Shown in pieces: positions 41,721 through 64,000 of a DNA stretch of 64,000 nucleotides. Made by a program: the position numbers and the translations under genes. Origin of the DNA: the human T2T-CHM13v2.0 reference genome, Homo sapiens; NCBI RefSeq assembly GCF_009914755.1, contig NC_060925.1; one strand, given 5' to 3'. The notes beneath the pieces were generated by a model. That model ran no database searches and was not told the origin of the DNA. It was given only the letters and a program-made list of their open reading frames with translations. Each line of letters opens with the position of its first letter. The stretch's first letter is position 1.

Positions 41721-42564
41721 ACAAACTCCCCACACTGACAATCTTTGCCAACCCTTCCCAGGCAAATCTTGCCCCCACGTTCATGGTCTCGCCTCCCAGC
41801 AGGTTTGGCCCACCCAGCTAGAGCTCCAGCTCGGCCCTTCCTAAGCCCCAAGTTGCATAGCTGCCTGGTGGGTGCGTGTTCCACAGGTACCTCGGACTCG
41901 CCCTGACCCCAGAACGTCTCTTCTACGCCAGGCCGATCCCTCCTGCCATCCTCTGTCTGTTAAATGGCACTGCCATTGCCTGCAGGACGAAGTCCATATT
42001 TGCTGGTTTGGCTACAGAGTCCAGCGTCGCCTTCCTCTGAGCAGCCTGCAGCCTCTGGTGCAGCCACACTGCACAGCTTGCAGTTTCCAGACACGCATTG
42101 GCCTTTGCAGTGCGGCCCCGAAGTGGGAAGGCCCCGCCCCTGGCCCTGGCCAGAAAAGCACCCACTCATCCTTTCCCATCCCAGCTTGCCCGCTGAGTGA
42201 CTTTGAATCAATGATTCATGTTGTCTGTGCCTCAGTTTCCTTAACCTTAAAGTGGCATAATAATTAGTTCCTGCCTCATGGAATTGTGAGTGCTAAATAA
42301 ACAGTAAGTCTAGTGCCCGACATAAAAGTGCTCAGCATACGACGATCATGAGCCATGTCTAAGCAGGCGCAAGCCCTCCCAGGCTTCTCATCTGCAATAT
42401 TGGCCATTTCTCTTCATGCCTCAGTGTCCTGTTTGAGTTGAGCATGTTTTTTTTACAAGTGAGTCTCTCCTCCATTGGCCGGGAACCGCCCGAGAGCCGG
42501 GAGCATTTGTCATTCTTGATGGACCCCCAGGTCTTAAATCAGTACTTGACCCTTAAGAGGTGTT

Positions 42565-44695: not shown

Positions 44696-46039
44696 TGTTC
44701 CATTCTTTTCGAGCAAGCAGGAAGCCACGGGGCTACCTCAGTTGCTCTTAGCCAGTAGCTCTCTCCACAGGTAGGCCTTCATCGGAGGGGAAAAGCCACC
44801 TTAGGGTTCCAGAGCTCAAGGGCGAATGATGCTTTCCACCCACTAATTTAAATACGGAAGCATCAGATTGTCTGCTTCTCAAGGAAAAGAGCTGTTACCA
44901 TCTCTGTCTCTTCAATGGGACCCACTCCTGGGCCCCACAGCAGGGCAGGTGCTCAGATGAATGGTGGCCGCCTGCCTGTGTCAGAGGGTCGGCCTAGGCA
45001 GGTTCCCCAGTCCGCTGGCCCGGGACGTCCTCCTCTCTCCCGGCCGCTCACTGTTCAGGACAGCCCGGGCCCCCCCCTGGGGCCTTGCAGGAGAGCTTCT
45101 GTGATCCACTGGGTGGCTTTGAGGGTAGCTCCCAGGAAAGGCTGCCTCAGCCCCAGCGTGATGGGGACGGGTAGGGGCCGATGAGGCTTCCCAGAGCAGC
45201 GATGGCCTTAGGTATTGCCAGAAGGAAACCTACTTTTCCTCCAAGATCAGAGGGAAGGATGAGGTGGGGTGTTGGAGCATCACCATATATATACATCACA
45301 CACACAGGGAAACACTCCTACTTGGATGGAGGATCTTTGCTGTTCTGTTGAGGCCAGCCTGATCCTGGAGGCAGGGCAGGGCCTGGCTGTTGCCCAGGCT
45401 CCAAAGAGGCGCCAGGGCGTCCCTTAGTCCTTACACTTTCTCCAGAACCTGCGGGCAGCAGGAGGCCCTTGTCGGGACAGGCAAGGGGGGCGGTGGTGCG
45501 GAATTGTGGGCGTGGCAGTCGGAGGCGCCAAGCCCGGGGAGGCGGGGCTTCCTGGGAGCATGCGTAGTGCCGGCTCTGCCTGGGCGGGGTCCTAGGCTGC
45601 TGCTCCCGCCTCCCCCGGCACAGGTAGGGCGCCCCGCAGACCCGGACAACGCTGGGTGTGGCTGAAAACAGGGAGTCATGGTGCGTTCTGGGGAAGGGTC
45701 AGGGCTGGGGGCTCGGGCCCCTGGACCAAAGACTCTAGCCAAATCCATCGGAGGCTGAGCAGGGCGATGGGGCAGGGCCGGGGGAGCCGTGGGGAAATGG
45801 GAGGGTGTGGGCCGAGCAGCGCCGGAGGCAGGTACCGACCATCGCCGGGTTTCCCAGAGGGCAGTGGTACCTGTGCCCACATGTGCGGCCTTTTTTGTAA
45901 AGGAACCTATCCCAACCCGAAGGCCCAAACGTGTGGCCGTGTAAGTTTAGTTGTGCCCGGAGTCCCAGGAGAGCCCGGACTGAGGGCAGCCAGAGGCCGG
46001 TGTCCGCAGAACGGCCCACGAGGCCTTCGGCTCAGTAGC

Positions 46040-46252
46040 CTGGAGTTTGAAATGCACCTTGAGCTTTAATGGCCTTTTCCTTGTGAGAATTCGAGTTAAC
46101 GTGCCTGCTGGTGCTTTTGATGGGTGAGGACGGTGAGGCAGGCCACACATCTCGCTTCTTTCCAGAACACTTCTGGGTAGTCGTTCAATTCCACATTTAA
46201 TCCAAAGCCAACAGTTCCATGGGTGACTGTGCTGCTGGCTGTAGGAAGCCGA
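46040..46252 (-). other. AKT3: Probable non-coding terminal exon of the AKT3 short-C-terminus isoform (3' end approximate)
   Basis: Minus-strand acceptor atcctcatctgtccacAG|TCGGC (plus ct 46253-54; second candidate AG at 46239-40); ATTAAA on minus at 46070-46065; distance from the 57540 donor (~11.3 kb) agrees with my recollection of the variant-2 structure. Confidence 0.65.
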
Positions 46253-46815
46253 CTGTGGACAGATGAGGATAATGGTCTGAGTGAATTAGCAAGTCTGGAG
46301 AGGAGCGCCCATCAGCAGAATGACAAATTTAGGATCTTTAAAGACATCTGGTCAGCGATGCCGGAGCTCGTGATTGACTGAGTGATTAATAATGGAAAAC
46401 CCTTACTTCAGTGTTTCCACGGCCCTCACCCACTTCCCCAGCCGGGGCGGCCGTCTGCTCAGCCTGCCAGAGACCTTTCCAGCTGAACAATGGCGGCATT
46501 TAGGCCCCTCATCTTTGACCTCTGCTTGGGAGTTCAAAGCTTCCTTTTCCTTCTACTTACCCCACTTATCTGCGTGTTTTCTAATTGATAGTGTACTGAG
46601 ATGGCTCCCAGTTCCCACGCACATTTGCTAGAATGTTACCTTCACACAGTGCGTACCAAGGACCTAGTGCCAGCCAGAGCCTGGCACCTCAGGGTCACCC
46701 TAGGCGTCCTGCTCATGGTTCCCTATCAGGGGCTTCCCTCAGATACACACAGCCCCTGGGCCTGTTGAAAGGCTGACGTTATCCCTCTTTAATTCTGCGG
46801 TGGATTTTTCTCCAG

Positions 46816-46942
46816 GCTAAGGCAGCTGGATAAGCACAGCCAGGCCACAGCCCAGCAGCTGGTGCAGCTCCTCAGCAAGCAGAACCAGCTTCTCCTGGAG
46901 AGGCAGAGCCTGTCGGAAGAGGTGGACCGGCTGCGGACCCAG
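46816..46942 (+). CDS. SDCCAG8: SDCCAG8 penultimate coding exon (127 nt): (R)LRQLDKHSQATAQQLVQLLSKQNQLLLERQSLSEEVDRLRTQ, coiled-coil
   Basis: Acceptor tttttctccAG|G at 46814-15; donor CAG|GTactg at 46943; 1 nt plus 42 open codons with heptad Leu/Gln pattern; peptide recognised as the SDCCAG8 (NPHP10/BBS16) C-terminal region; phase 0 end joins in frame to 57560. Confidence 0.96.
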
Positions 46943-49929
46943 GTACTGTGCAGAACGCGGCGCAGGTGGGAGTCCTTGGGCGGGCGTCTACAGGTGGATC
47001 TTTTATGCACCTCAACAGGCCGGCTTTCTCACGGATCACATCGGTTAGCAGTAAGCTGGGAGGGAGGTCCCGAAGACTGTGCTGGGCACAGTGCAGGACC
47101 CAGAGAAGCGGAGCCATGGGCCCGTCCTGGTGAGGGAGTTAAAGTCCGTGCAGGTGAACAGACCCCGGCCCGCGAATCAACGAACCACACCGAGTGCCAA
47201 GTTGCGCCGTGCAGGCTGCGGAGGGTGCGAGAGCAGGGAGAAGCGGGAGGACGGCCGTGGGCGGCAGAACAGGCTTTTTGGAGGATGGTGGCCTTGAGCT
47301 GCCTCTGAAGGTCGTGTATGGTTTGAATTGGTTGAGGAAAGAGGTGTTCCCAATTAGCAAAGTCGTCTTGAATGGAAGGCAGGCATCTCATCCTAAATTA
47401 GCTGACTGATTACTGGGCTAATATCTGGAGTGCTTGCAGAGCACCCGGCAGTGTTACACACAGAACATGCATTAATTCCCTTTACCCTTGAACAAGCAGG
47501 CGATGCTGACTTTATTGTCTTCATGGTTTAGATAGGGAAACTAAGGCCCAGACAAGCATTACAGCTGGCAAGTAGGGACACCGCAAACGGAGGCTAAGCC
47601 TGACTCCACAGCCCAGGCTTTCCCCATTCAGGTTAGATCCGGGGCCACCAGCAGGGAAAAGGGAGGAAGGAAAGTGTCCCGGTGAATTTGGAACACAGTA
47701 TGAAACCTCGTTTGCTAAATCGCTTCTCTTCCTGTCAGAGAGGCTGTGCATTTTGCCCCGTCAAGCAGTTTGTTAGGATAATGAGGTGGTCCGTGGGCTG
47801 ACCAAGGCCTCCGCCTTTAATTAGGATTGCACCCAGGTGCTCTGTGAGTGCCCTGGGGACTTCAGGCAGTAAGTGCTTGGAATGATTAATATGAAAAATG
47901 CATCTGGAAATGAAAACGAAGAGGAGTCTCATTCTCCTCACAAAATGACCCTGTGCTCAAGGAACCTGTAAGTACTGACTTTTCCCACTCGGTCCAAAAT
48001 CCCTCTGCCAAACATGTGTTCACAGACAGTAAATGAGCACACCCAGGCGCCACGGAGCTAAGGCCTGGAGGTGGAAATGCCTCTACTGTCCCCATGCTTC
48101 TGAGACTGCTCCCAGGGACTGTGGGGGAGCGGGCCGCTCAAAGTCCGAGCCACAGCCGCACTGCCACAGCTAATCTAGGAGGCGAGGCCTCACCTGGCAC
48201 GCTCCATGGCAGGGCCCTGGAACCTGAATTTTGCCAAGCTGTTGGGATGATTCTGGACGACACTACATTTTGAAAACCTCTGAAGTGTTTGGAGCTGGAA
48301 AGAACAGAGAATTATTCCAGGTTGTGTCACTGTGCTGAATCCCCTGCCCCCGCTTCGGACAAGTAACTTAAGCCTTTTTCCAGCCTCAGTTTCTCCTCTG
48401 CACAGTGGGCATGGTGCACGCCTGGCTTCACGGGCTACTGGGAGTGCTGAGTGCAGGCGGGATGCCCCACGGGCCCTTGGGCACACAGGCTGAGGACGTG
48501 TGAGGGTGTTTCCTTTCTCCCTCATCTTCAGAGGGTCCTGGGAGAGGTTCAGGGAAGGCAGAGGCCTGCAGAGCAGCAGCTGTGGGACCAGTGCCACTCC
48601 CCTCCCCTCTGCTTTCAGGATGACCCCCTCATCCTCCACCAGACCCAGCCCAGAACCCAGCCCTGTGGGCAGGTCCCCAGGGAGGGCCCCAGCAGCACCT
48701 GCTTTAGGCCTGGCCAGCCAAAGATCAGGACCACTGGAGCCACTAGGTCTCCTGGCAGGTGACTAGGCTCTTGTCACATAGGAGGGAGGGACCGTGACTC
48801 CTGGCATGAGTGAATCTTCAGCCTCTAAAGCCAAGAACTCTGTCAGACCTCAGGTTGTGGGGAGTCTTCCGTGGAAGCTGGAGCACACGGCAGCTTCCTT
48901 TGGGCTCTGGACTAGATCAGGAGAACGTGGGCTTTGCCTTTTAACTCCCCATCTGCCTGCTTTACAGCACACTTAGATCTTAACATGGATCACCGATGCT
49001 TAGAAGCTTCTTCCAGGGCTTTAAAAATCTGGCTATTGCCAAATGAGTTGCAAAATTTTCACAAAACGCATTAAAAAAACCCCAAACCTCAAAAAATCCT
49101 CAGAAAAACTAGCAGGTCTTTCTTTCTTCTTTTGCCTGAAGCAACAGCAATGATTTGCCCATTCCTGTGCTATCTGATACTGGCCCATCTGGCTCATCTC
49201 TAAAGCGGCCTTTCAGATTCAAATATTACACTTGGAGTTATTTTAATATGAACATGACAAAAGAAATTTGGTAGAGGGAATGTTGGCTTTCAGTTGCAAA
49301 TACTAGTGGTCAGAGAGGAGGCAGGGATCCAGGTTTGCAAGCTCTCTGCTGAATATCTAAACCCAGAGCCTGCTTTTTCTGGCTAAGCCTGGCCTTCACC
49401 TCTAGGTAGGGGCTGTCAGTGGGCTTCAGCCTCTGCGATGCCTTCTTGTCATGGAATCAGCTTGAGTTGTGAGTTAGGCTTCTGCTGAGCCATGATGTGG
49501 GCGAGGCTGCTGTAGGTTCGAGCAGGTATTTTGGATGCGGTGCCGCCTGAGGGCTCCGGAGTGCTCAGCCACCCTCTCTGTTTTCCTGGAGTGGCCTGTG
49601 GGTCCAGATCTTGGGCAGCTGAGGGTTAGAGCTGTCCTCATGTCCGGGTTAGAGATGGTTTAACTAAAGGCTTCCGTTTTCTCAGCCTGGATGAGTTAAG
49701 CTTAACTTAATTTTGCATGTCAAACTCTAAACATCTCTGTCCACTTAATACCCAGAAGAGAATGGGTCGGGCAATGGTTCCAAAGCAAAGTCCACCCCTT
49801 TCCTTCCCTCCCTGTCCTGGGTCCTGAGCCCCGCTGCCCCTGGTGGTGGGGCTCAGGCTGGCCTGTGGCCTCCAACAGGAAGTGTCTAGCCTGTTGGCAG
49901 GCTTCATTATTCTAATTGTTTCTGCTTGA

Positions 49930-50725
<796 letters not shown>

Positions 50726-53700
50726 TAGGGTGACTACAAATAATGGCATTATTGATCTCCTGCCTCACCTGGGTTCGGAAACAACTTCAAGAAAATAGCT
50801 TTTAAATGTCATGAAATGGCTCTTACTTGTCCTTGTGGAGAAACAGACACTGAAGCACTAGCCCAGCTTTGCCTAGATGCAGTTCCCCACACTCTGTATT
50901 CCGGGAGGGTCAGGGCCTCCAGACACACACCCTGGCCTGTCTTTTGTTTGAGACTGGGCTGGGTAGTCGCACTCTCGCCCTCTTGAGAGGCAGGCCCTGG
51001 CTGGGGGAGGCTGAAACCTTGGTGGTGGGGGTGGGGGGAGGGGGATTCGGGGTGAGGGTGGTGGGTCTCAGGGGAGTTTGGGCAGGGCCTGACAGCTTGG
51101 AGCAGGGTCAGGGGTCTGCGGCCCAGAGCCTGGGGGCTCTAACATCTGGCTAGGAAGGTTGGAGCCAGCTGGTGAGGAAACATGAGTCTTGGGGAGAATG
51201 GCATCTGGGACAGGGGAAAACAGAAATTATCTGTCCACTTAGAGGATGGTCTCAACCATCAAGATGATTTTCTGTGTCTGCTTTCTTATTTGGTAATGAA
51301 TACGGTTTTGGCTGACTTGCATTTTCTGGTAGCCGTCGTATCCTGAGCAGGCTGCTTGGTTCTGTCTGCAGTGTTCAATCTGGGGAGTGATTCCCTTTTA
51401 GTCCCCTCATATGAATCACTTACAGTTTAGAAAACAGAGTCGGAAACTGACTTGTCAGTGGTTAATCAGTTGGCCCTATGACTTTTAAGCATTCTTGGCA
51501 GTGAATTTACTTTCTAATTTGATTTAAACTTGTGCATGGATCCAGCAGCCATATGTGATTATATTCAAGATCATCGACATTATCTCATTATACCAAAGGA
51601 CTCATAGAAGAGAGCCGAAAACAAGCAGGGGACACAGAGACACAGAAGATGATGAAGGGAGGAAAGGCCCATTGCAACTGGAAGCAAAGGGAGAAGGGAG
51701 GTTCTAGAAAAGTGACAGCTCTCAGGGAGCAAGACTCCCTGCCGAGGGAGGCCTGGCTGCAAGGCGGAGCTGCTGCAGGCTGCCCATGTTAGGCCTTGGA
51801 GGTGTCACCTAATTTACTGTGGTCCTTCCAGGAGCCCTGGGGGCCTCGCCCAGCTGACTTAGGAGCTACCACAAAGTTAGCTACCTGTAAGACAGATGGT
51901 GCTTGAATAGAACAGCAAATACATTGAATAAAATAAATTAAAAAGCCTCCTCCTGAACCAAGATTTTTTGGAAAGAATTCTAAATAGATGAAAACAAACA
52001 ATTTGATTTCAACCAAATTGTTGTTTTTTTGTTTTTATCCTGATTTTCACCCGAATTGTCAGTCTCAAAAATAAACACTGATACATTCCCAGAAAATATT
52101 TTTCAAATAAAAACTGACTCTGTTAAAGTTTGCCCTGATTCTTTCAAAACTGTGTACAAGACACTGTCAACCAAAGTGACTTGCATATTTTTTTAAATAA
52201 ACTTGAACATATGCAGCTAAAATGTCATTAACTCCCTGCTGCCTGAGTGTTTTTAAAAAATGACACAAGACCCTGGGTGCTGCATGTCTAACATAAGCAT
52301 CTCGCGACCTTCGGAGAAACTTCCCCAAACACCTCCAACAGCAGACAGTTAAACTTTTTGTTTTTTGACTGAGCGCCCCGTGTATAATTAATATTGAAAA
52401 GCGCATAGGGCTTCATTTTAGCCAGACTTGCTCTTCCGTTAACAGTTCACTTTGTCCAAGAGTGAGTACTTTCAGAATAAGAATCATGGGAGAAAAGTCA
52501 ATTGAATTTTATATTCCTTCAGATACATTCGCTCTACTTATTGCTTCCTGAGTCAGACATTACATTTCACAATATAAATTCACAATCAAGATTTTAAAGG
52601 GAGCTAAATATTTTAATCCAATTAGACAAGTGAACAAAACACTGAATATTGCATGTAGTGTAGATAAGTGGTTCTTGCCTTTAAAAGACTGTAATTCCGT
52701 CACATTACAACCCCAAATGTCAGTGTTGTCTTTATTTTTAACACTTTCAAACATGAGGCAGCCAGAGGCTCCACTCTCTGCTGTTGGTGACACTGTCTGT
52801 CCTTTGGGAATTCTTAAAATCTATTTACCATGGAAACATGGTTCATATAAAACACAGACCTGCCTGTGTGTAGAGGAAGTTCTCATGACTCAGGGGACTT
52901 GAGAAAGCTGGAAGATGACAAACTCAGACCCCACGGTTGGGAAGGAACCCTTGGGCTTGGGTGCGCCCTGGGGAGGACAGGTGGCACCGCAGAGCCAGGG
53001 CCTCCACCCCGGCCTCATGTGTGCTGGGGCCTCCCTGGCCTGTGCGGGGCCGCCTCCCTCTCCCCGCCAAGTCCAGCTCGAGATGCTGTCTTACGGAACG
53101 TCCCACTTCATGTCTGCAAGGCGGCCTTCTCTGTGGATACCTTTCCATTCCTCTGGTTTCTGCGGCCCTGTTCCTTTCTCGGAGCCCAGAAGCAGCAAAG
53201 CCAAGCCCTGCGGTGGAAGGGAAGGAGGGCTTTGAACTCTGACTGCGGTGTGGAGGCTGTTATCAGGGGCCCAGCCGGGCAGCCAGGAGGGAAGAATGGC
53301 CGCTGCCCTGCGATGGCCTTAACCGTGAGCCCCCGCCTGCTTTGCAGCTGGCAGAGCCAGGTTCCTGGAAAGGCCTGACCCGGAGGGGACGAGGCCCCTC
53401 AGTGAGAACTTCAGTCGCTGTGCTGGGGACAGCAGGGCCGCAGGGGCCTGAGGGTGGCTGACTGCCCCTCGGCTCTGTAGAGGAGTGCTCCCTTCTGACA
53501 GGTGGGCGGTCCTGCTCGAAGGCCGCGTTTCCCCGACGTTCTGCCCAGCATGCTGAGGGCACCTCTCTCCTCAGTGCGTTGGTGGCGAGCCAGAGCTCAC
53601 GTGGCTTATTTCATCCAGGTTGCCTTCCCAATTTGGCAGCTTAATTCCGTAGATATCAAACTGGCTGCCCCTCATCTGCCAGAGCAAGCAGGAGAGCCTC

Positions 53701-55556
53701 GCATGGGAGAGTCTGGACTTTGAGGTCAAACTGCCTGGATTCGAATCTCAGCTCTGCGTTGCTTCAGAGACATGTGTTAGCTTTCATGTCACTTGATTTC
53801 TGGCAGAGAAAAAGAAAGAACCAGCTTCCCTTTAAAAGGAAGTGCCTCATATTACCCAGAGCCCAGCACAGATGATTATGAAACCAACAGGATTAGTGCT
53901 GAGATCATTGTGGGCTTGAAAGGGCCATTTGAGATAAATAACCATTTTGTACAGATAGAAAAATAAGGCCCAGAGAAATGAAGTGAATGGAATTGGGAAG
54001 TGGCTGGGCAGGGAAATGAACTTCTTCTCAGGCCACAGGATGTGTGGATGGGGGCAGGTACCCGAGCGGGTGCGGGCGGAGCCGGGCCTGGCTGGAACAG
54101 CTGCCGAGCCCTGGCCCCGGTGCCCAGAACACGAGGCGGAGGCGGGAGGCGAGCCACCAAGCGAGGCAGGGGCTGCCCTGGAGCTCTGTCAACTCAGGGC
54201 CAGCTTTGAAATGCCCCAGATGGAGGTAGGGGGAGGGGCCTGCCCTCTCCAGTTACAAATGGATGCTTTATTGCCAGACACACAAGGAACAGGACCACGT
54301 TTTGACTTGGCCAAACAGAGACAGCGTGCCAGTGAGCAGAGCGGACAGCAGGGGGGGAAGGGGTTGTTACCTTCAGAAGGGTTGGCTAGAGCCACCCACG
54401 GAGACAGTGAAGTGCGAAGCCCGGGCAGGTCTCCTGTGAGCAGGGGCGAGGGGTGCCACCATCTCCCCGGGCTGCCACTTCTGGCTGGTTTGGGAACAAA
54501 GCAGCAGCAAAGGCTGGCTGGACCCCACAGTGTGGTTGCCTGGGGAACAGTTCAGGTCACCCAGAGCAACTGATTTCTTACACTCAGAACTTAACAAACT
54601 TTAGAAATAAATGAGGCAGGGTTTGTGGAGAGATGACTCCGATAGGATTTAAAATGAGAACAAAGAAAATGGGTTAGCAGCTGTGTGCCTGCAGATGGGG
54701 GCACGTTTCCACCACCTGTGGACAGCACGGCAGGGGAGCAGTGGCCAGGGCGCCCTGTCGCCCCCCTCTGAGCTGCAGGACAGCCACAGGAGGGCCACAG
54801 CAAGGGCCATGATGACAAATGGAAGGGCAGAAGGACGGGAGACACTGGCTGAGGGCTCATGTCCCACTGGCATACGCACGCTCTACTCTCCTGGACGAGA
54901 CCATGATCACTGTGGTGTTGATGACAGGACTTCCTGGAAATAAGCATCGTGGATATCCCTAATGGCAGACAAGCCAGATGTGGGCAGTAACTAAGGCTTC
55001 TGTCTCGGTCAGAGAAATGTGTGTTACCAAAGAGTCAGCAAATGGAGGCGACAAAACGGTGACCTCCTAGGACAAATTATCCAGCCCTCCAGTGCTGACT
55101 GAACGCTCACCATGGGTCAGGCACGGCTGTAGGCACGGGTGGGGGGGGGGGGCGTTGAGCAGTGAACGGTAAGTTCAACAGTGTGAAAGTGGGGATGGAT
55201 ATGGGGCTTCTCACCTGAACCGCAGGAAATACAAAGCCCATAGAGATGGCCATGGCTGATCTGCCGCAGGAAGGAATCAGGCTGACTTTTGATTGGTTCC
55301 TGGTGAGGCCCGTACATCTGTGTCACCCCCATGCAGGCCCACGGAATCAGGAGGTCACCCGTTTCTGGAACAGCTCCGATAGTGATAAATTGCTAGGTGG
55401 CCTGGGAGCCCACAGGCATTATGTAGACTCATCATGAGAAATGCCTGTTTCCTGGAGCTTATCAAAAAATTCCGCAACACATTTTACTTTTACTTCAGGT
55501 CTTTACGCCTATTCTGTATTGTGTGTACGTGGGTGTGTTCTCTACCCAAAATTCAT

Positions 55557-55776
55557 CACTGCAGCCTTGAATTCTGGGCTACAGCAATTCTCCTACATCA
55601 GCCTTTTGAGTCGCTGGGACTACAGGGGTGCGCCACCACACATGGCTAATTTTTACAATTTTTTTTGTAGAGATGAGGTCTCACTATGTTGCCCAGGCTG
55701 GTCTCGAACTCCTGGACTCAAGCGATCCTATTGCCCCAGCCTCCCAAAGCACTGGGATTACAGGTGTGAGCCACTG
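55557..55776 (-). mobile_element. AluJ-like, partial
   Basis: cactgcagccttgaattctgggct...ggactcaagcgatcc...gtgagccactg. Confidence 0.88.
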
Positions 55777-57542
55777 TTGGGTTGTTTTTCTTTTGAAGTG
55801 TTATCTGTTGGGATTTATGCTTATCCCTTTTGTATTCAGTCATCCTAGCATTTCTAAAGTTAGGAAGCCACTGTGTCAAGAGCGAGGCCACCAGGCCACC
55901 TGCCTTATGTGGCCAATCCATGGAGCAGGGGTGGAGGGCCATTCAAACCAGTCATTTAGCAGGACTGTGCTGGGTCAGTTCGATCACCTGGCCTGGAGGG
56001 CACGTCAGCTTGGTGCAAACCCTGCGTTTGACAATCAGATCGTGTTGGTGGCAGTCTCCGTGCTGTCAGTATCCCACTGAGGACAGAAGGGAGTCCCCTC
56101 TGCAATGGCAGGGCTCTAGGGCATAGTGCATGGGGTGGACTCCTCATGGGCCACTCAGACAGGGCCTGGAGAACAAAGCATCCCGTGGGCCCAGGAAATT
56201 GTCCACCTGGCTCCACGGGCCTGGGAGGGCTGTGTGCATGGGATGGCAGGTTTACGAGGAGGAGTGAGGCCTCCTGCCGGAGCCCCACCTGCATTCAGCC
56301 TGAGGCCAGGCCCCCCACCTACTCTAACTACCCTGCTGAGACCACCCCACTACTCACAGACCTGTTCAAGAAAAAGTTGTCCTCAGGGTCTCTCACACAC
56401 TGGGAAATCTACTTGAAATGTAAACATTACTTTTTCTCATTTTTCATAAAAGGCAACAGGCTGATGTTCATATATTTCTCTTGAATGCGGATTCAGTTTC
56501 ACTCATTGCCCTGTCTTGGAAATCCCCATGTTAATGATGGCTTAAATTAGGTTGATAGAGTCCTCCCTTGGAGTCCAGCTTGGAAAATCCTCACTGGAGA
56601 GGGGCAGGCCCACTTCTCTTTTTGGAAGATGGTTCCTAACTAAAGAAAGAGGGACCAGATTGGGCCCCTGGCCCTGCAGTGCGTCCCAATTTATCTGACG
56701 TAGAAACCGGGATTTGGAAAATACCATCCTGGCTTTTCTCTGGACTTCACAATCTAGAGGGCGAGGACTGTGGCCCAGTCACCTTCCCACACAGTGCACA
56801 GTAGAAACTCCAGACATGCTTTGTGGAGTGGAAACATTTCCAGTGGCTTCTGACTCTAGTTCCTGATGTGGTTTAAACTAATTTGGGCAGCCATGGCAGC
56901 AGAGGCCAGGAACAGTATTCAATACTTTCTGAACTTGTGATTCTCCCCCAACCTGATCTGCATGAAGCTACTTTGGAACATTTGTATCTGCGTAAAACTA
57001 AGAGACCTCAGTACACCCAATCCCCTCTTCCAACACATGTGAGGTTTCCATGTGAAAGTACTTTTTCATAGGTTACAATAAATTGCTTGCAGTTACAAAT
57101 TTGGAGGTGTTTCAGCTTGTATTGTTTCACGAGGAATTTCTTAGGGGCACTTGGCCTACACCCTGTTTTTGTTCTAGAATTACCTGCCGTTAAGGTCAGA
57201 TAAATTTTCAGTAAACAGATTATGGCACAAATCAATGTGTCCTTTCCCGGACAGAAGAGATGGCTCTCTGGCCATGTCCTAACACCAGACTGTCCTTATT
57301 TAAGAGGCAGGCGTGTCTTTTGTCTAGGTTGTCTTCAAATTTAACCCATTAAACCAGTTAACCTTATTTCATATGTGAAGGGCTTTGATGTGGACAAGAT
57401 GAGGCACAAACTTTTCATATAATTTCCACATTTTTAGCAACAGGTTTTTTTCTCCAACAACAGTTTTCATCATAAAAGGTGACTAAACCAGCAAATGAGA
57501 AGACAAATAACATTGAAGAACATGAGCTATTGAAACTTACTT

Positions 57543-57548
57543 TTTATT
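57543..57548 (-). terminator. AKT3: AKT3 distal poly(A) signal AATAAA
   Basis: Plus-strand TTTATT at 57543-48, overlapping the TAA stop of the alternative exon. Confidence 0.8.
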
Positions 57549-57590
57549 ATTTTTTCCAGTTACCCAGCATGCCACAATCTGATTGCTGAC
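57547..57590 (-). CDS. AKT3: AKT3 alternative C-terminal exon (PKB-gamma1 / isoform 2), coding part: (C)QQSDCGMLGNWKK*; exon 57590-57541
   Basis: Minus-strand acceptor tcatttatttcactctgttccatccAG| (plus ct 57591-92); same phase as the canonical exon (2 nt first); peptide recognised as the C-terminus of the AKT3 variant lacking Ser472; donor AAA|GTAAGT at 57540-57535. Confidence 0.92.
57560..57589 (+). CDS. SDCCAG8: SDCCAG8 last coding exon, coding part: LPSMPQSDC*
   Basis: Acceptor ctttttattattttttccAG| at 57558-59; TTA CCC AGC ATG CCA CAA TCT GAT TGC TGA; matches the recalled SDCCAG8 C-terminus. Confidence 0.95.
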   Translation, partial: LPSMPQSDC

Positions 57591-57900
57591 CTGGATGGAA
57601 CAGAGTGAAATAAATGATTTACAAAGAGATATTTACATTCATCTGGTTTAGACTTAATATGCCACAACGCACCACGACCTTCCCAGGGTGACACCGCCTC
57701 AGCCTGCAGTGGGGCTGGTCCTCATCAACGCGGGCGCTGTCCCCGCACGCAGTCGGGCTGGAGCTGGAGTCTGACTCTAGCTGAGCAGAGCTCCTGGTGT
57801 ATGTTTTCAGAAATGGCTTGAAGTTATGTGTTTAAATCTGCTCATTCGTATGCTAGGTTATACATATGATTTTCAATAAATGAACTTTTTAAAGACTTGA
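57590..57900 (+). other. SDCCAG8: SDCCAG8 3'UTR (end approximate)
   Basis: Follows TGA 57587-89; AATAAA at 57875-57880 followed by GU/U-rich sequence (gttgtaatgtttccttttt) at ~57901-57919. Confidence 0.85.
57875..57880 (+). terminator. SDCCAG8: SDCCAG8 main poly(A) signal AATAAA (proximal candidate also at 57609-57614)
   Basis: Canonical hexamer with a downstream GU/U-rich element about 20-40 nt later. Confidence 0.8.
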
Positions 57901-60900
57901 GTTGTAATGTTTCCTTTTTATCTTGTAGTGATGAACAAAACACACCAAAAAGGCACATATTTTAACTAGGCCAAAGTATATTAAGGACCAAACTTTTTTT
58001 CCTGCCATTCATTTTTCTTTTCATGATCTATATATCAATCATCCTTCACCTTTAATCAATGTCCCATCAGACTCCATTTTATTTATTTATCGTCCTACTT
58101 TGTGCACAATCAATCAATCAGGAGACACCAGGAAGCACTATGCATTACTCTTTCCATTCTGTTAAACAACGAAAACAGACAAAAAAGCATCTTTGGCTCG
58201 GTGGTGTCAGATTTTTTTCTTCAATACGCAGTATTTGAGAGGAGCCTAAAAACGTACTTAGTGAAATTAGAAAATTTACTTAGAGTATATCAAATATCTG
58301 TACACAGATAATTATTTGTCTAAAATAGTATTTCTACTATACACAATTAAGCCCTCAAATGCTTTAAAGTAATAAAAACGGACACTGGACATACCGTGTT
58401 GTATCTGAGAATGACAAACACTAAAGGCAAGGCTGCAGTTAGTTAGGACAGGTCCCTGACCTTCGGCTGCCCTGCCTGGCCAGCGAGCCATCATCCTCAT
58501 CACCATCTCAACACAGAGCTGATGTCACCATATGCTCAGCCTTGCCTCTCAGAAGTGATGTGGATTAGGCTTTGGAGGCGGTGGCATGATCTACACACAG
58601 AGACCATTTGAATCTCTTGAGCATGTAAAAGGTTCAAGCCTGAAACAGTAGAACTTCTATTCAGATTCAGAAGTTTTTTATTTCATCAAATGTGCTAGAC
58701 ATAAAGGCTGTCACATAAGATATTTTAATTGTCCTTAATTCTGTTTTAGATATACTGTGAATAAATTATACAATATTCTAAAAATAGCACCTTTAAAGAA
58801 TTATAGAGGTCACTTTTTTTTAGCCTCCTGGATCTGTCAACCCCAGTGGTTTTGAGAGAAGAGCACATGTGAGAATGCCCTCAAATTTGGCCGTGTGACA
58901 TACACATACATGCTTGACTCACTCTGGTCCCAAAAGCCATTCCTCTGTCTGGCTTCGTCACAGGAGCAAAGCCAAGTTTCTACAATAGTAGCTTTATGAG
59001 GTAAAATCAGAAAAAGGCCCCATCCAGAATGATTCAACGTGAAGTCAGACTGCAGTCCAGCCATCCTACCCATCTACATCACCCACGTCTAAGTTTGTTA
59101 ATTTGCCATGACATGTTGTTAGAAATACACTCTAAGAAAGGAAATATGCAGAGCAGTACATTATCAGGAAGACGTTAATGAAAAGCTACATTCCTTCAGA
59201 TTCTGGGTCCAAACCGTGTGTTGTATAGATGATTCGGGTCTGAATGTCCCCAGGGTCTGAGACCTCCTTCATCCCTGGCTTCACAGTACATCCATCCTAA
59301 ATCCAGTGCTGAGAGGTCAGCGTTTCCCCTCAGAAGCAGCCGTTCATCAAAGTTTGCACAACCGCACTACTGCCATTTCACTGAAGTAAAAATGATCCCC
59401 TATGTGTGTGTGTGTGAGCTACAAGGAATTATTTCTATATTTTCCTGTCACATTTTATACAAGGTAGGTTAATACCAGCTGGGGCTATTAAAAATCATGT
59501 TTTCATTAAAGAAGATTTAATTTGGGGGGATTATAGAACCACATCCAACAACAATAAACAGAGAAGTAGCAGATTGACATAGTGCTTTATTTAAGCTGTC
59601 TGTACGAAGGAAAATCATGTTCATCCCTATCATATACGTGTAAAAATACTAAGGATGTACAGTGTACAAAAACAGTTTCTCCTAGTTATTCCACATCCTT
59701 GTGGGTCATATACTTCAGGAAATAGACAGGTTTAGTATGACCAACAGTAATAGTAATACAGTTTCTTGGGTTTATAGTTGCATCTGCTTAAAATCCTTAA
59801 CCAGATGACTAGATCTTGCGCAGATCTAATGAAAGAACTAGCAAGGTCAAGAAATGTCACAAACTATAAAGCTACAGGGAGGTAATTCAATTACCAATTT
59901 AGAGGTTTTCTTTTTATTTAAATAAATACTTTACATTTCATGCTTGCCTGTAATGCACTACCAGGAGCAAGATAAGGAAATTCTACTGTAGACAGTACAA
60001 ACAGTAGCAGCAAAGTGTGTATGTTGAGGTGTAATAGAGAGACCCTGCAGTTAGTAAGGAAGGCCCTTACTTTTGTACTCTAGGAGAAGCAAGTGGCCCC
60101 TGCAAGAACAGTCAGCTTTAAGAAGCTGGAAATCAGGGATGGGAAATGGAAAACAATACTTGAATAATGCTATGTAATTAGTGTAGAAAGCAAAGCTGAG
60201 CGCGACCCTGCCAACCATCTAAGCAGAAATGGCCAATTTCCTCCAAGATGGCTGCATTATGACAAGAAGTCAAGCTTCATGACAGTTAGTATGGGCTGGA
60301 GTCTGCAAAGTCTGAACTGTATTCTCATAGAATGATTCCAGGTTTCAGGGTGTTCCACCTGCCAGAACCCAAAACTACAACTATGGGCGACACAAGGGAA
60401 GTTTTAGAAATCTCCCTCTACACGCATTTCTGGTTTTCTATTATTCCTCCATGGCAGCTGACAGATCTGGAAGTGAAAATAGGGGATTCTCAAAATCAAA
60501 GCCAAGAAGACACCTTGTGTGACACCAATGGAGTCTCAGAGGGTGGAATAGAAGTGACTGAGCCCCAGGCATGGCTGGGAACTGAGAGCCAGTGTGAGGA
60601 GTGGCCCGCCTGGGGCAATGTCAGTGCCAGTCATTAATCTTTAAGAAGTGTCCTTGGCCAAGGTCATGGGAATCACTTTAAGATTTGCGGGAGAAAAAAC
60701 CAAAACAACAAAAAGCTGTGTGCTTAGTGTTCGGTGTCATGCTTTCCCTCTAGAGGAGTAAGTGCTCTGAACATCAGCCAGTCTCAGCTTTCTGCTCTTC
60801 CTCTCACCTGTTTCTTTCTTATATAATGGATGCAAGACAACTTAAAGAACATACCTTCTAGTCTACTTTTTTGTCAAAATGAAACATTCAACATAATTCC

Positions 60901-63052
60901 AAGTGAAAAAAAAAAGATTAGCTATGTGTGTAAGTAAGAATGAACTACCATTTACTGTAACTTCCTACTCAATACTAAGGATGAACTTCACTCAGGTAGA
61001 AATATGAAAAAGAAGGATAACGTTGATGTCTGAATATGTCTTAGCTGCCTTAGTAAAATGCCCTTTAACCCCCGTCAGTCCCAGTGGCCCACCCACTGCC
61101 AGCAGTGGTTTCATAGCTATAAATCCACACTTCCAGCGTCAAGAGGCTAAGACATCTGCATATGAATATGATTCATCCTACTTAGAAAGTCACTTGCTCT
61201 TTCATACAATGCAATCATAATACTACGTCATGCTGTAGTCTTCCGTTTGGGAGCTGTCAGAGTTTAACTAAAATACATTTCCATGATCACTCCGCGGAGT
61301 AGGATGGCCTTCTGCTTGCCGCAAGAGTGGCCCCCAGCCCCTAGGACTTCACAGGCTGCTTTGGAAATTGTCAGCTCCTAGCACCAAAGGGTTTAATCTG
61401 AAGATCATCATTAATGAAGGAGAAAGATGAGGTTTGCATACATGCCCCCTTTCAGTGAGAAATGTTGGAATCTGGGGGACATGAGTATATACAGAAAAAG
61501 AAAAGCTGGAGGTGTTCTCTTTTTTTGTTGTTTTTTCCCTGATGGCTTAATTCAGTGATAAATGTACCATGATCCCAAGAAACACACCAGGTTCTTAGCC
61601 TTCACTGCCCATTTCCTAAATACTCAAGATGTGTTCATTTTGCCACGTAAAGATCATTTCTTATCTTCACTCAGGTCTCAATTTTCTTCATTACTTTTTG
61701 TTGCCAGGTCATCATAACGTTTCAAATTCTTAAATGAGCAAACGTCAACAGCTATTTGTTTCATTAACCCCTTGGCATGCATAGTTGGGGATTTTCTCAT
61801 TTTCAGTACCAAGGGGTTAAATGGCAGCATCTCTTCTCCCAAAGCCAAATTCTAACCAATATATTCCATTTCAGAGCCTTATCATTTTTTTTAACAGAGG
61901 AGAAAAAGTGCATGATTCTCATCAGCGTGTACAATCCTTGCACATGGGTCAAAAGTAACTGCAGTAAGTCTATTTTATATAAGTTGGAGCTGCGTTTGCT
62001 AACATGACATACAATTCTCATCACTAAAAAATAAATACTACTGCAATATAAACAAAATCATAAAAGGACATTCAAAGTTTCAACATCTGAGAAAAAGCTA
62101 ATTCACGTAGAACTGAAAGTAAAAAATTAAATAAGGCAAACACCTGTTTACCTTGGTGTAGAAATTTTGGTGAAAAGCAGTATCATTATACCTGTCTACA
62201 TTCTTCAGCCATCAGAGGTGATAAATGTCAAGAAGGAAAAAAGGTTTCCAAGCACAGGGGAAAGATGCTCTCTGGCTCAAATTGTTTCATAAGACCCTTT
62301 AAGTGACCTTGACTGTGCATATGCCTTCAGTTCTTGGTAGAACAGTGTTCACTTGCTCATGATTGCCCGTGAAGTCTCGACATCCACATGTGATATGGGC
62401 TTCTTCTACAGTATCCACCAGGAATTTAAAAAAAAAAAATTATATATATATATATATATCCCAACAGTTGTTCAGTCCTTCTACCAAATGCTTCCTAATC
62501 AATTCCAGCCACAGCTTAGTGATATATGCCTACTTCACGCACGGATCTGATGTGCTTTACATATGCACGCCACCACCCTTCCACAATTGCTTGTTCTGAA
62601 TTTATAAACTAAATCTTCTTAGTCTAGTTAGTTTTTCTCTTCTAGAAAGTTAAAAAATGTACCTAGAATCAGTGTATCTCATTTAGCCTTCACTGAGGGA
62701 AAAACTAAAAGATCAAAAGATGATAATTGGTGCACAAATGAACAATGGTGGGCTCATGACTTCCAAAGGTTGGAAAATTACTTCTTAAAGTTGCTATAAT
62801 AGTAAGACAGTAGCAGCAACAGCATGAGACCTTAGACTGAGATACAATTTCATGCAAAAACAAAAACTGGAGTGTATTTGCGTGTATGTGTGTTTTCATG
62901 AGGGTGAAAGGTGGCGAGGGGTGAGGACCCTTGGCTGGTCTGGGATGTCGGAAGGTGCCCCTGCTATGTGTAAGAGCTAGGACTGGTGATGTCCAGGAAT
63001 CATTTTCAGTAATAAATTGAAGATGACAGTGAAGTAGCAGAATGAAAGAGAC

Positions 63053-63138
63053 TTATTCTCGTCCACTTGCAGAGTAGGAAAATTGAGGGAAATGCGGCCG
63101 CCTCTCATTGTCCATGCAGTCCATACCATCCTCATCAT
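63053..63138 (-). CDS. AKT3: AKT3 (PKB-gamma) canonical last coding exon: (Y)[27 protein letters not shown]
   Basis: Minus-strand acceptor tttcctgcccacAG| (plus ct 63139-40); 2 nt plus 28 codons to TAA (63055-53); AGC-kinase hydrophobic motif FPQFSY with the Ser472 codon at 63077-79. Confidence 0.98.
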
Positions 63139-64000
63139 CTGTGGGCAGGAAACATCTATTTTAATTTTACACATTCATTTTTTGCAACATTATCTCTAGT
63201 CTATGTTTTTTAAACTCTGAACATAGGAAAGATGAACAGAGGCAATAGCTCCCATAAACTTGTGTTCATCAATAAGCTGTAGAGTAATTATACTTCAAAA
63301 ATCATCTGATTTTCATAAATACATAGTCTATGAAGAAATAATACTATAGAATCATCTCTAAGACATCAAAATTTCAAGACTCAATGAAACAGTGAAAAAA
63401 ATGGTATTGAAGAAAACAGAAGTTTTTAAGAAGGAGCAGTCTTCAGTAACCTTTCATTTCATGTAACCACATATATCAAAACTGCAAGTCAGTGAAATCC
63501 ACAGCATCCAAAGTCTGTATAGAATTCATCATCGAATGTCTTCAAGTGCTTATATTTTTTCTTTGTGATGCTTTAAGTGCAACTGCAAAATAAAGCTTCT
63601 TATGAAATTTCATTCAACATCTAGCATCTGGCTTAACTCACCTTTCCCAATTTCCCTATGATAAAACTTTAGCATGAAGGGACTAAGTGAAAGAAAAAGA
63701 GGGAAGGATGTCAACATCTGAGTCCTAGCTCATCAGGAAACAATGGAAGAGACTTGAAAGGCATCAAAACAGGCCGCTGACAATCACAGTGTTCCTCCTG
63801 TCAGCTTTCCTGGTTTCCTGTATTTCAAAGATCACAGATGATCAGCACCCTGTTCTCATAAATGTCCTGTGATGACAGTCCTGTGCTGTTGGAAGCTCTT
63901 CCTGGTATGTGGCCACGTGGTCAGCCACTCAGTCAACATGCGCTCCCACGCATCTGCTCTGGGCTGAGCACCCGTCAGGCCCAAGGACCGCAGAACTTTG
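63139..64000 (-). other. AKT3: AKT3 intron upstream of the last canonical exon
   Basis: Upstream (on minus) of the 63139-40 acceptor; no further AKT3 coding sequence recognised. Confidence 0.9.

What the first reader, a model, noticed from the sequence alone, without database searches (positions are those of the whole stretch)
57535..57549. AKT3 stop codon, poly(A) signal and consensus U1 donor stacked in 15 nt (TAATAAAAA|GTAAGT)
Seen on minus: TAA (57549-47) overlaps AATAAA (57548-43), with GTAAGT 2 nt further on (57540-35), between the hexamer and the expected cleavage site. Known: U1 snRNP suppresses nearby cleavage/polyadenylation, and the 50-nt rule governs NMD. Inference: splicing and cleavage are mutually exclusive here. 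For isoform 2 the stop is only 6 nt upstream of the junction, so it is NMD-immune. A canonical long-UTR mRNA spliced at this donor would have a junction 5.5 kb after its stop and be an NMD target, so U1/CPSF balance could selectively remove Ser472-containing AKT3.
Basis: partly seen in the sequence, partly recalled or inferred. Interest (0 to 1): 0.7.

Follow-up and report, generated by a model that had tools for sequence, protein, structure and literature searches.

The report
AKT3 stop, poly(A) signal, donor overlap
Fifteen bases at the tail of the AKT3 gene really do hold a stop codon, a poly(A) signal and a splice donor on top of one another, but all three are already annotated, and the proposed decay switch on the main AKT3 message has no support so far.

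Summary
On the minus strand, 57549-57535 reads TAATAAAAAGTAAGT. TAA 57549-47 ends the alternative AKT3 C-terminus (...QQSDCGMLGNWKK*), and a second in-frame TAA follows. AATAAA 57548-43 lies 15 nt before the RefSeq transcript end at 57528. That end is shared by the canonical 5.6-kb last exon and by the 63-nt alternative exon. GTAAGT 57540-35 is an annotated donor joined to exon 46252-46035. This is a composite internal/terminal exon. Splicing and cleavage exclude each other by construction. The spliced Ser472-less mRNA has its stop 6 nt before the junction, so the 50-nt rule spares it. Both outcomes encode the same protein and differ only in 3'UTR length (19 vs 224 nt).

New here: the same bases on the plus strand are the candidate branch point (CTTAC), polypyrimidine tract and AG of SDCCAG8's last intron. 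The two genes also code antisense over 30 nt.

The motif alone is not special. It occurs 51 times in this genome against 111 for a reversed control, and the donor lacks G at -1.

None of ten literature searches turned it up. Interest is modest.

The parts
57547..57549 (-). TAA stop codon of the alternative (Ser472-less) AKT3 C-terminus
   Evidence: In-frame translation of the exon from 57590 gives QQSDCGMLGNWKK*.
57544..57546 (-). Second in-frame TAA (tandem stop). It is the TAA that lies inside the AATAAA hexamer.
   Evidence: translation shows '**'.
57543..57548 (-). AATAAA poly(A) signal. It is shared by the canonical last exon (57528-63138) and the alternative terminal exon (57528-57590).
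   Evidence: Both RefSeq exon ends (57528, hub table) lie 15 nt after the hexamer.
57535..57540 (-). GTAAGT 5' splice site, context AAA|GTAAGTTT
   Evidence: RefSeq exon 57541-57590 ends at the GT (hub table). 8 of 11 positions match the ideal U1 register. Duplex energy is -5.6 kcal/mol, rank 265 of 2996.
57528..57528 (-). Annotated cleavage/polyadenylation site, 13 nt into the 'intron' of the spliced form
   Evidence: Hub table exon ends. Distances.
57478..57527 (-). U/GU-rich downstream region of the poly(A) site
   Evidence: 48% T and 64% G+T in the 50 nt after the cleavage site.
57620..57637 (-). Two TGTA motifs (starting at 57637 and 57623) upstream of the hexamer. They are possible CFIm sites.
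   Evidence: The CFIm role is inferred from general knowledge.
57541..57590 (-). Alternative AKT3 exon, internal (spliced) form, 50 nt
   Evidence: Hub table. The acceptor ccatccAG|GTC at 57592-91 has a tract that is 80% pyrimidine.
57528..57590 (-). The same exon in its terminal (cleaved) form, 63 nt. Its 3'UTR is only 19 nt.
   Evidence: Hub table.
46035..46252 (-). Far 3' exon of AKT3, joined to the 57540 donor. Its acceptor is cacAG|TCGG and its own ATTAAA lies at 46070-46065.
   Evidence: hub table. The intron is 11288 nt.
63053..63138 (-). Canonical AKT3 C-terminal coding part (...[12 protein letters not shown]), which contains Ser472
57528..63052 (-). Canonical AKT3 3'UTR, 5525 nt. It holds 6 AATAAA and 4 ATTAAA, and the last AATAAA is the one in the 15-mer.
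57536..57540 (+). CTTAC, candidate branch point of SDCCAG8's last intron. The branch A at 57539 lies 20 nt before the G of the AG. It is the reverse complement of GTAAG of the AKT3 donor.
   Evidence: one of only 2 YTNAY matches in 57500-57557. The other is TTTAT, 13 nt from the AG. Branch-point use is inferred, not mapped.
57541..57559 (+). Polypyrimidine tract TTTTTATTATTTTTTCC plus AG of SDCCAG8's last 3' splice site. It is the reverse complement of AKT3's stop codon and poly(A) signal.
   Evidence: 85% pyrimidine and 70% T over -22..-3. The exon start at 57560 is from the hub table.
57560..57589 (+). Last coding part of SDCCAG8 (LPSMPQSDC*, TGA at 57587-89), antisense to the AKT3 alternative coding exon
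   Evidence: All 9 AKT3 third codon positions in the overlap coincide with SDCCAG8 third positions.
57875..57880 (+). AATAAA of SDCCAG8, 15 nt before its annotated end at 57895. The whole SDCCAG8 last exon (336 nt) lies antisense inside the AKT3 3'UTR.
   Evidence: hub table.

Best explanation
What it is. The 15-mer is the 3' boundary of a composite (internal or terminal) AKT3 exon. That exon sits at the very end of the canonical 3'UTR.

Where the Ser472 choice is made. Exon 13 can splice to the acceptor at 63138, giving the canonical C-terminus with Ser472 and a 5.5-kb 3'UTR. It can instead splice to the acceptor at 57590, giving the alternative C-terminus that ends at TAA 57549-47.

What happens at the 15-mer. 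Either way the transcript reaches AATAAA (57548-43) and GTAAGT (57540-35), and there are two outcomes.
- CPSF uses the hexamer and cuts at 57528. This is the annotated end of both the canonical mRNA and the short Ser472-less mRNA, whose 3'UTR is 19 nt.
- U1 uses the donor, and the exon is joined to 46252-46035, which has its own ATTAAA. The 3'UTR is then 224 nt.

Consequences. The two outcomes exclude each other because the cleavage site and its U/GU-rich downstream region lie in the intron. The hexamer and the U1 pairing region also abut, sharing the base at 57543, so CPSF and U1 probably compete sterically. For the Ser472-less mRNA both outcomes give the same protein and both escape EJC-dependent NMD.

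Opposite strand. The same bases are the candidate branch point, polypyrimidine tract and AG of SDCCAG8's last intron. An A-rich antisense of a T-rich tract readily yields TAA and AATAAA, and CTTAC read backwards is GTAAG. The stack is therefore most simply the antisense face of a strong 3' splice site that AKT3 has taken into use.

Shown: the sequence, the reading frames, the distances and the annotated exon ends.
Inferred: the U1/CPSF competition, the branch-point assignment and the evolutionary reading.
For: - Sequence and frame.
- Annotated exon forms 57528-57590, 57541-57590, 57528-63138 and 46035-46252: hub table.
- The far exon has a proper acceptor (AG at 46254-53) and an ATTAAA 30 nt before its end.
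- The poly(A) site has the expected parts: two TGTA motifs 75-90 nt upstream, cleavage 15 nt after the hexamer, and 64% G+T in the 50 nt downstream.
- There is no unusual RNA structure to hide either signal: z = +1.06, and 167 of 200 shuffles fold at least as well.
- On the plus strand, CTTAC lies 20 nt before the AG and the tract is 85% pyrimidine, the best of the 5 acceptors compared.
- Passages in PMC8306188, PMC10670075 and bioRxiv 10.1101/2022.01.17.476632 confirm that an AKT3 splice variant lacking Ser472 exists and behaves differently.
- The introduction of PMC9074902 states that U1 bound at a 5' splice-site motif represses cleavage and polyadenylation.
Against: - I could reach no expression, long-read or 3'-end data. 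The share of transcripts that use the donor rather than the cleavage site is unknown, and the donor may be used only rarely.
- The donor is only moderately strong. It has A at -1 and ranks 265th of 2996 GT sites on the minus strand, and 18th of 306 within 57328-63138.
- The exact 15-mer is not enriched in the genome: 51 copies against 111 for the reversed control.
- Nothing here shows that U1 or CPSF binds.
- The branch point is assigned from a motif, not from lariat data.
- No other species could be compared, so it is unknown which strand's signals came first or whether the stack is conserved.
Confidence: 0.7

Rival explanations
1. Canonical transcripts that used the 63138 acceptor sometimes escape cleavage at 57528 and are spliced from 57540 to 46252. 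This puts an exon junction 5512 nt after their stop, so they are destroyed by NMD. The U1/CPSF balance at the 15-mer would then selectively lower Ser472-containing AKT3.
For: The arithmetic is right: 5512 nt from stop to junction, against 6 nt for the alternative stop. The donor and its downstream acceptor are real and annotated (hub table). NMD targets are under-represented in curated annotation (general knowledge).
Against: - Per the hub table, none of the RefSeq exon forms listed for AKT3 runs 57541-63138.
- The route needs a 5.6-kb internal exon, and read-through of 5 other AATAAA and 4 ATTAAA in the UTR.
- A donor that lacks G at -1 would have to beat a complete poly(A) site.
- The search for AKT3 plus NMD or 3'UTR intron listed 15 of 163 papers, and none of the 15 holds '3 utr intron'.
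- AKT3 plus telescripting gave 1 unrelated paper. AKT3 plus U1 snRNP plus polyadenylation gave 32 papers, and none of the 20 listed is about this site by title.
Confidence: 0.08
2. U1 acts here without splicing. Every mRNA cut at 57528 keeps the intact motif AAAGTAAGTTT 13 nt before its tail. Bound U1 (through U1-70K) would then inhibit tail addition, or would cause nuclear retention and decay through ZFC3H1. This would dampen all AKT3 mRNAs that use the distal site and favour proximal poly(A) sites.
For: The retained motif is visible in the annotated exon ends (hub table). [quoted passage not shown] It cites earlier work for U1-dependent repression of cleavage and polyadenylation.
Against: RefSeq chose this very end for its selected AKT3 transcript, so the site evidently yields stable mRNA. 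The motif is not the full consensus used in those reporters, since -1 is A. No AKT3-specific data were found.
Confidence: 0.12
3. The stack has no function of its own in AKT3 regulation. The sequence is kept for SDCCAG8's last 3' splice site, and its antisense happens to read as stop, poly(A) signal and donor. Use of the donor would be low-level splicing noise that was captured in a RefSeq model.
For: The plus strand carries a textbook branch point, tract and AG. The 15-mer is not rare or enriched in the genome. The other 2 of 3 AATAAA..GTAAGT pairs in the window lie outside any annotated exon. The two 3' ends of the Ser472-less mRNA give the same protein.
Against: The AATAAA is certainly functional for AKT3, because two annotated exon forms end 15 nt after it. 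The far exon has its own acceptor and ATTAAA. The 19-nt and 224-nt 3'UTRs could differ in regulation.
Confidence: 0.25
4. The 15-mer mainly serves exon definition. U1 at GTAAGT or CPSF at AATAAA, each within 50-63 nt of the acceptor at 57590, helps that distal acceptor compete with the canonical acceptor 5.5 kb upstream. U1 would then shift output towards Ser472-less AKT3 through splice choice rather than through decay.
For: The exon is short (50 or 63 nt). Its acceptor tract is richer in pyrimidines than the canonical one (0.80 against 0.60). Exon definition by a downstream donor or poly(A) site is established for vertebrates (recalled, not read here).
Against: No data were available. The canonical acceptor is transcribed first and is the one in the selected RefSeq transcript.
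Confidence: 0.2

Closest known systems
Composite internal/terminal exons with splicing versus polyadenylation choice (immunoglobulin mu secreted/membrane, calcitonin/CGRP type; recalled from general knowledge)
   Same: One acceptor serves two forms of the exon. A donor inside the longer form competes with a cleavage site just downstream. A further exon with its own poly(A) signal follows.
   Different: - Here the hexamer lies upstream of the donor, inside the exon, and only the cleavage site lies in the intron. The two signals abut instead of lying tens to hundreds of bases apart.
- The choice does not change the protein.
- The same poly(A) site also ends the canonical 5.6-kb exon.
U1 snRNP suppression of nearby poly(A) sites (papillomavirus late 3'UTR, HIV-1 5' LTR, telescripting), as summarised in the introduction of PMC9074902
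   Same: A U1-complementary 5' splice-site motif lies next to a cleavage/polyadenylation signal.
   Different: In the known cases the U1 site lies upstream of the hexamer, or well downstream of the cleavage site. Here it lies between the hexamer and the cleavage site. No U1 dependence has been shown for AKT3.
Nuclear retention of mRNAs that keep an intact 5' splice-site motif (intronic polyadenylation transcripts; ZFC3H1/U1-70K; PMC9074902)
   Same: AKT3 mRNAs that end at 57528 are formally intronic-polyadenylation products relative to the 57540 donor, and they keep the motif.
   Different: These are the main annotated AKT3 mRNAs, not misprocessed by-products. The motif lacks G at -1 and lies only 13 nt from the tail.
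Convergent (tail-to-tail) overlapping gene pairs
   Same: AKT3 and SDCCAG8 overlap at their 3' ends: 336 nt of exon and 30 nt of coding sequence on both strands. The mouse genes are also tail-to-tail (PMC5812623).
   Different: Splice and 3'-end signals of both genes share the same bases: a donor opposite a branch point, and a poly(A) signal opposite a polypyrimidine tract.

Membership tests
Composite internal/terminal exon | The same 3' splice site is used by both forms of the exon | tested here: met
   RefSeq exons 57528-57590 and 57541-57590 share the start at 57590 (hub table). AG lies at 57592-91 after an 80% pyrimidine tract.
Composite internal/terminal exon | A 5' splice site lies inside the longer form, with the cleavage site downstream of it | tested here: met
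   GT at 57540-39 and annotated end at 57528, 13 nt further on. The hexamer lies upstream of the donor, which is atypical.
Composite internal/terminal exon | A downstream exon with its own acceptor and poly(A) signal | tested here: met
   Exon 46252-46035, with AG at 46254-53 and ATTAAA at 46070-65.
Composite internal/terminal exon | Both outcomes occur in cells, in a measurable ratio | not testable with these tools
   No transcript or 3'-end data were available. Only the RefSeq models from the hub table.
U1-suppressed poly(A) site | A U1-complementary motif lies close to the poly(A) signal | tested here: met
   AAA|GTAAGTTT starts 2 nt after the hexamer. 8 of 11 positions match the ideal register, and duplex energy is -5.6 kcal/mol.
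U1-suppressed poly(A) site | Cleavage at the site rises when U1 is blocked | not testable with these tools
   AKT3 plus telescripting gave 1 unrelated paper. AKT3 plus U1 snRNP plus polyadenylation gave 32 papers, none on this site among the 20 listed. Supplementary tables were not searched.
EJC-dependent NMD substrate (3'UTR intron) | An exon junction lies more than about 50-55 nt after the stop | tested here: not met
   For the annotated spliced form the distance is 6 nt, so it is not a substrate.
EJC-dependent NMD substrate (3'UTR intron) | A canonical-stop transcript that carries the 57541/46252 junction exists | tested here: inconclusive
   The junction would lie 5512 nt after the stop. 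No exon 57541-63138 is listed in the hub table, and absence from RefSeq does not exclude an unstable RNA.
Convergent overlapping gene pair | Exons of the two genes overlap on opposite strands | tested here: met
   SDCCAG8 exon 57560-57895 lies inside AKT3 exon 57528-63138, an overlap of 336 nt. The coding overlap is 57560-57589.

The most novel reading that the evidence does not exclude
The 15-mer is a two-strand processing node. On the AKT3 transcript, U1 and CPSF compete for abutting sites and set how much AKT3 mRNA ends at the distal site, is spliced onward, or is lost through NMD or nuclear retention. This would shift the ratio of Ser472-containing to Ser472-less kinase. The same bases are SDCCAG8's last branch point and polypyrimidine tract. 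A single variant here would then alter a brain-growth kinase and a ciliopathy gene at once, and each gene's signals would constrain the other's evolution.
Probability: 0.1. Interest if true: 0.6.

Novelty: new member of a known kind. Interest (0 to 1): 0.3.

Why it matters
- AKT3 dosage controls brain size, and the form without Ser472 behaves differently from the canonical kinase in tumour models (PMC8306188; bioRxiv 10.1101/2022.01.17.476632).
- The site fixes the distal 3' end of the main AKT3 mRNA.
- It gives the Ser472-less mRNA either a 19-nt or a 224-nt 3'UTR in place of 5.5 kb. That removes it from the heavy microRNA control of AKT3 reviewed in PMC10670075.
- Variants in 57535-57559 should be read for both genes, because a change in the AKT3 donor is also a change in SDCCAG8's candidate branch point.
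- The overlap is an unusually compact natural case for studying U1 against CPSF. As it stands it is an annotated arrangement with an untested regulatory idea attached.

Tried and rejected
- An Rfam scan of 45000-64000 gave 0 matches. Folding 57470-57620 on the minus strand showed no unusual structure (z +1.06). An RNA-structure explanation was dropped.
- The primary papers on the Ser472-less variant (Suyama 2018, Brodbeck 2001) are not held. I know them only from citations and from recall.
- A six-term search for U1-70K and poly(A) polymerase precedents found 0 papers.
- The accession-number search listed 17 papers. By title none concerns 3'-end processing.
- The long-read cortex preprint reports novel AKT3 last exons, but the passages give no coordinates, so they could not be tied to this site.
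- The TDP-43 review lists AKT3 among cryptic-exon genes without a location.
- U1 duplex energy is a crude score that does not fix the pairing register, and no MaxEnt-type splice score was available.
- No vertebrate genomes are held, so conservation was not tested.
- I considered a protein search with SDCCAG8 exon 17 to see the C-termini of orthologues. I left it out as costly and as not bearing on the 15-mer.
Full report
**1. The observation**

Read on the minus strand, 57549..57535 is TAATAAAAAGTAAGT. It is the only exact copy in the window. One further copy with 2 mismatches lies at 42295-42309 on the plus strand.

The exon that begins at 57590 after ccatccAG translates as QQSDCGMLGNWKK followed by two stops, TAA TAA. 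The first TAA is therefore a true in-frame stop. The second is the TAA that every AATAAA contains.

The canonical coding end at 63138-63053 reads [27 protein letters not shown]. This is the hydrophobic-motif end with Ser472. That Ser472 is AKT3's hydrophobic-motif phosphorylation site is stated in PMC10903481 and PMC10826106 (passages).

**2. Is it more than chance?**

As a bare motif, no.

- AATAAA followed within 25 nt by GTAAGT occurs 3 times in the window. Shuffles give 0.20 and plain motif counts give 0.52. The other 2 of the 3 occurrences (1000-1025 minus, 42296-42309 plus) lie in no annotated exon.
- In the whole genome of the window the exact 15-mer occurs 51 times (26 forward, 25 reverse). 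The reversed control occurs 111 times.
- The donor is consensus only at +1..+6. With AAA before it and TT after it, 8 of 11 positions match the ideal U1 register.
- By a crude U1 duplex energy (-5.6 kcal/mol) it ranks 265th of 2996 GT sites on the minus strand, and 18th of 306 within 57328-63138.

What makes this copy real is its position. According to the hub's RefSeq table, exons 57528-57590 and 57528-63138 both end 15 nt after the hexamer. Exon 57541-57590 ends exactly at the GT and is followed by exon 46035-46252.

**3. Anatomy on the minus strand**

The poly(A) site looks complete.

- Two TGTA motifs start at 57637 and 57623.
- AATAAA follows, with the annotated end 15 nt later.
- The next 50 nt are 48% T and 64% G+T.

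Folding 57470-57620 gives no unusual structure: z is +1.06, and 167 of 200 shuffles fold at least as well. Both signals should therefore be accessible.

The far exon has a good acceptor (tgtccacAG|TCGG, AG at 46254-53) and an ATTAAA at 46070-65, 30 nt before its annotated end. The intron between is 11288 nt.

The canonical 3'UTR is 5525 nt and holds 6 AATAAA and 4 ATTAAA. The last AATAAA is the one in the 15-mer. The same hexamer is therefore the annotated distal poly(A) signal of the selected canonical transcript and also of the short Ser472-less transcript.

**4. What follows directly**

- Splicing at 57540 removes the cleavage site and its downstream region. Cleavage at 57528 removes every downstream acceptor. 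The two outcomes exclude each other by construction.
- The hexamer ends at 57543, and U1 pairing would begin at 57543 or 57542. I infer that CPSF and U1 also compete for room, but nothing here shows binding.
- For transcripts that used the 57590 acceptor, both outcomes give the same protein. Only the 3'UTR differs: 19 nt if cleaved, 224 nt if spliced.
- In the spliced form the stop lies 6 nt before the junction, inside the 50-55 nt limit of EJC-dependent NMD (established rule).
- The choice between Ser472 and no Ser472 is made earlier, at the acceptors 63138 and 57590. It is not made at the 15-mer.

**5. The other strand**

- CTTAC (57536-57540) is one of only 2 YTNAY matches in 57500-57557. 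Its A at 57539 lies 20 nt before the G of the AG. The other match, TTTAT, lies 13 nt away.
- The tract over -22..-3 is 85% pyrimidine and 70% T. It is the richest of the 5 acceptors I compared in the window.
- The AKT3 donor GTAAG is thus the reverse complement of the candidate branch point. The AKT3 stop and poly(A) signal are the reverse complement of the polypyrimidine tract.
- SDCCAG8's last coding part, 57560-57589, reads LPSMPQSDC*. It lies antisense to AKT3's alternative coding exon for 30 nt.
- All 9 AKT3 third codon positions in that overlap coincide with SDCCAG8 third positions. Both peptides contain QSDC, which comes from a near-palindrome.
- The whole SDCCAG8 last exon (336 nt) lies inside AKT3's 3'UTR.
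- Mouse Akt3 and Sdccag8 are also tail-to-tail (PMC5812623, passages).

A T-rich tract read backwards is A-rich and easily gives TAA and AATAAA. The simplest origin of the stack is therefore the antisense face of a strong 3' splice site. This is inference, because no other species could be compared here.

**6.

- The distance is right: 5512 nt.
- The required transcript, with exon 63138-57541, is not among the exon forms in the hub table.
- It would need a 5.6-kb internal exon and read-through of nine other hexamers.
- A donor without G at -1 would have to beat a complete poly(A) site.
- I rate this model at about 0.08.

Two other U1-based readings are at least as likely.

- First, U1 bound to the retained motif may damp tail addition or export of all 57528-ended mRNAs. 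[quoted passage not shown] Its introduction cites the classical work on U1 repression of cleavage and polyadenylation.
- Second, U1 or CPSF may help define the short exon and so favour the 57590 acceptor. That acceptor's tract (0.80 pyrimidine) is better than the canonical one (0.60).

**7. Literature**

| Search terms | Result |
|---|---|
| AKT3, SDCCAG8, antisense | 3 papers. PMC6395382 (passages) names SDCCAG8 only as a neighbour. |
| AKT3, Ser472, splice variant | 5 papers |
| AKT3, telescripting | 1 unrelated paper (listing only) |
| transcript accession numbers | 17 papers, none on 3' ends by title |
| AKT3, alternative polyadenylation, isoform | 81 papers, 20 listed |
| Akt3, S472, alternative splicing, exon | 6 papers |
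| AKT3, nonsense-mediated, 3'UTR intron | 163 papers with at least 2 of 3 terms, 15 listed, none of them holding the third term |
| U1 and poly(A) polymerase precedents | 0 papers |
| 5' splice-site motif retention | 38 papers, 12 listed |
| AKT3, U1 snRNP, polyadenylation | 32 papers, 20 listed, none on this site by title |

Passages confirm that the Ser472-less splice variant is known and functionally distinct (PMC8306188; PMC10670075; PMC13531872; bioRxiv 10.1101/2022.01.17.476632).

A long-read study of fetal cortex reports further AKT3 last-exon isoforms, but the passages I saw give no coordinates (10.1101/2023.03.25.534016).

The primary papers (Suyama 2018, Brodbeck 2001) are not held. 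I did not search supplementary tables of U1-blockade or 3'-end studies, and these may hold AKT3 data.

Within these limits I found no description of the stop/poly(A)/donor overlap. I also found none of its identity with SDCCAG8's splice site.

**8. Verdict**

The structure is a composite internal/terminal exon whose parts are all annotated, and it belongs to a known kind (splicing versus polyadenylation choice, with U1 next to a poly(A) signal).

Two features are unusual. The signals are extremely compact, with the hexamer upstream of the donor and the cleavage site downstream of it. Both strands of the same bases are used by two disease genes.

The proposed NMD switch is unsupported. Interest is 0.3.

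Noticed in passing
window 57560-57589, both strands: AKT3's alternative C-terminus and SDCCAG8's C-terminus are coded on opposite strands of the same 30 nt. All 9 AKT3 third codon positions in the overlap fall on SDCCAG8 third positions. Both peptides contain QSDC because of the near-palindrome CAATC[A/T]GATTG.
   Followed up: partly
window 57528-57546 (-): The Ser472-less AKT3 mRNA that ends at 57528 has a 3'UTR of only 19 nt, against 5525 nt for the canonical mRNA. It would escape nearly all 3'UTR-based control such as microRNAs.
   Followed up: no
window 60807 (-): CAG|GTGAGAGG is the GT site with the strongest U1 complementarity inside the canonical AKT3 3'UTR (-11.1 kcal/mol). It is not annotated as a donor. 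Joined to the 57590 acceptor it would make a 3'UTR intron far downstream of the canonical stop.
   Followed up: no
window 1000-1025 (-) and 42296-42309 (+): Two other AATAAA..GTAAGT pairs. The second lies inside the RefSeq enhancer 41892-42450. Neither lies in an annotated exon. They serve as controls showing that the motif pair alone does not mark a processing site.
   Followed up: partly
window 46560 (-): GGG|GTAAGTAG has the best U1 duplex energy of all 2996 GT sites on the minus strand (-11.9 kcal/mol). It lies about 300 nt upstream of the 46252 acceptor, inside the AKT3 intron, and is not annotated.
   Followed up: no
AKT3 locus, not placed in the window: A long-read study of fetal cortex (bioRxiv 10.1101/2023.03.25.534016, passages) reports novel AKT3 isoforms with alternative last exons. 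[quoted passage not shown] The passages gave no coordinates, so the relation to 57590/57528 is unknown.
   Followed up: partly
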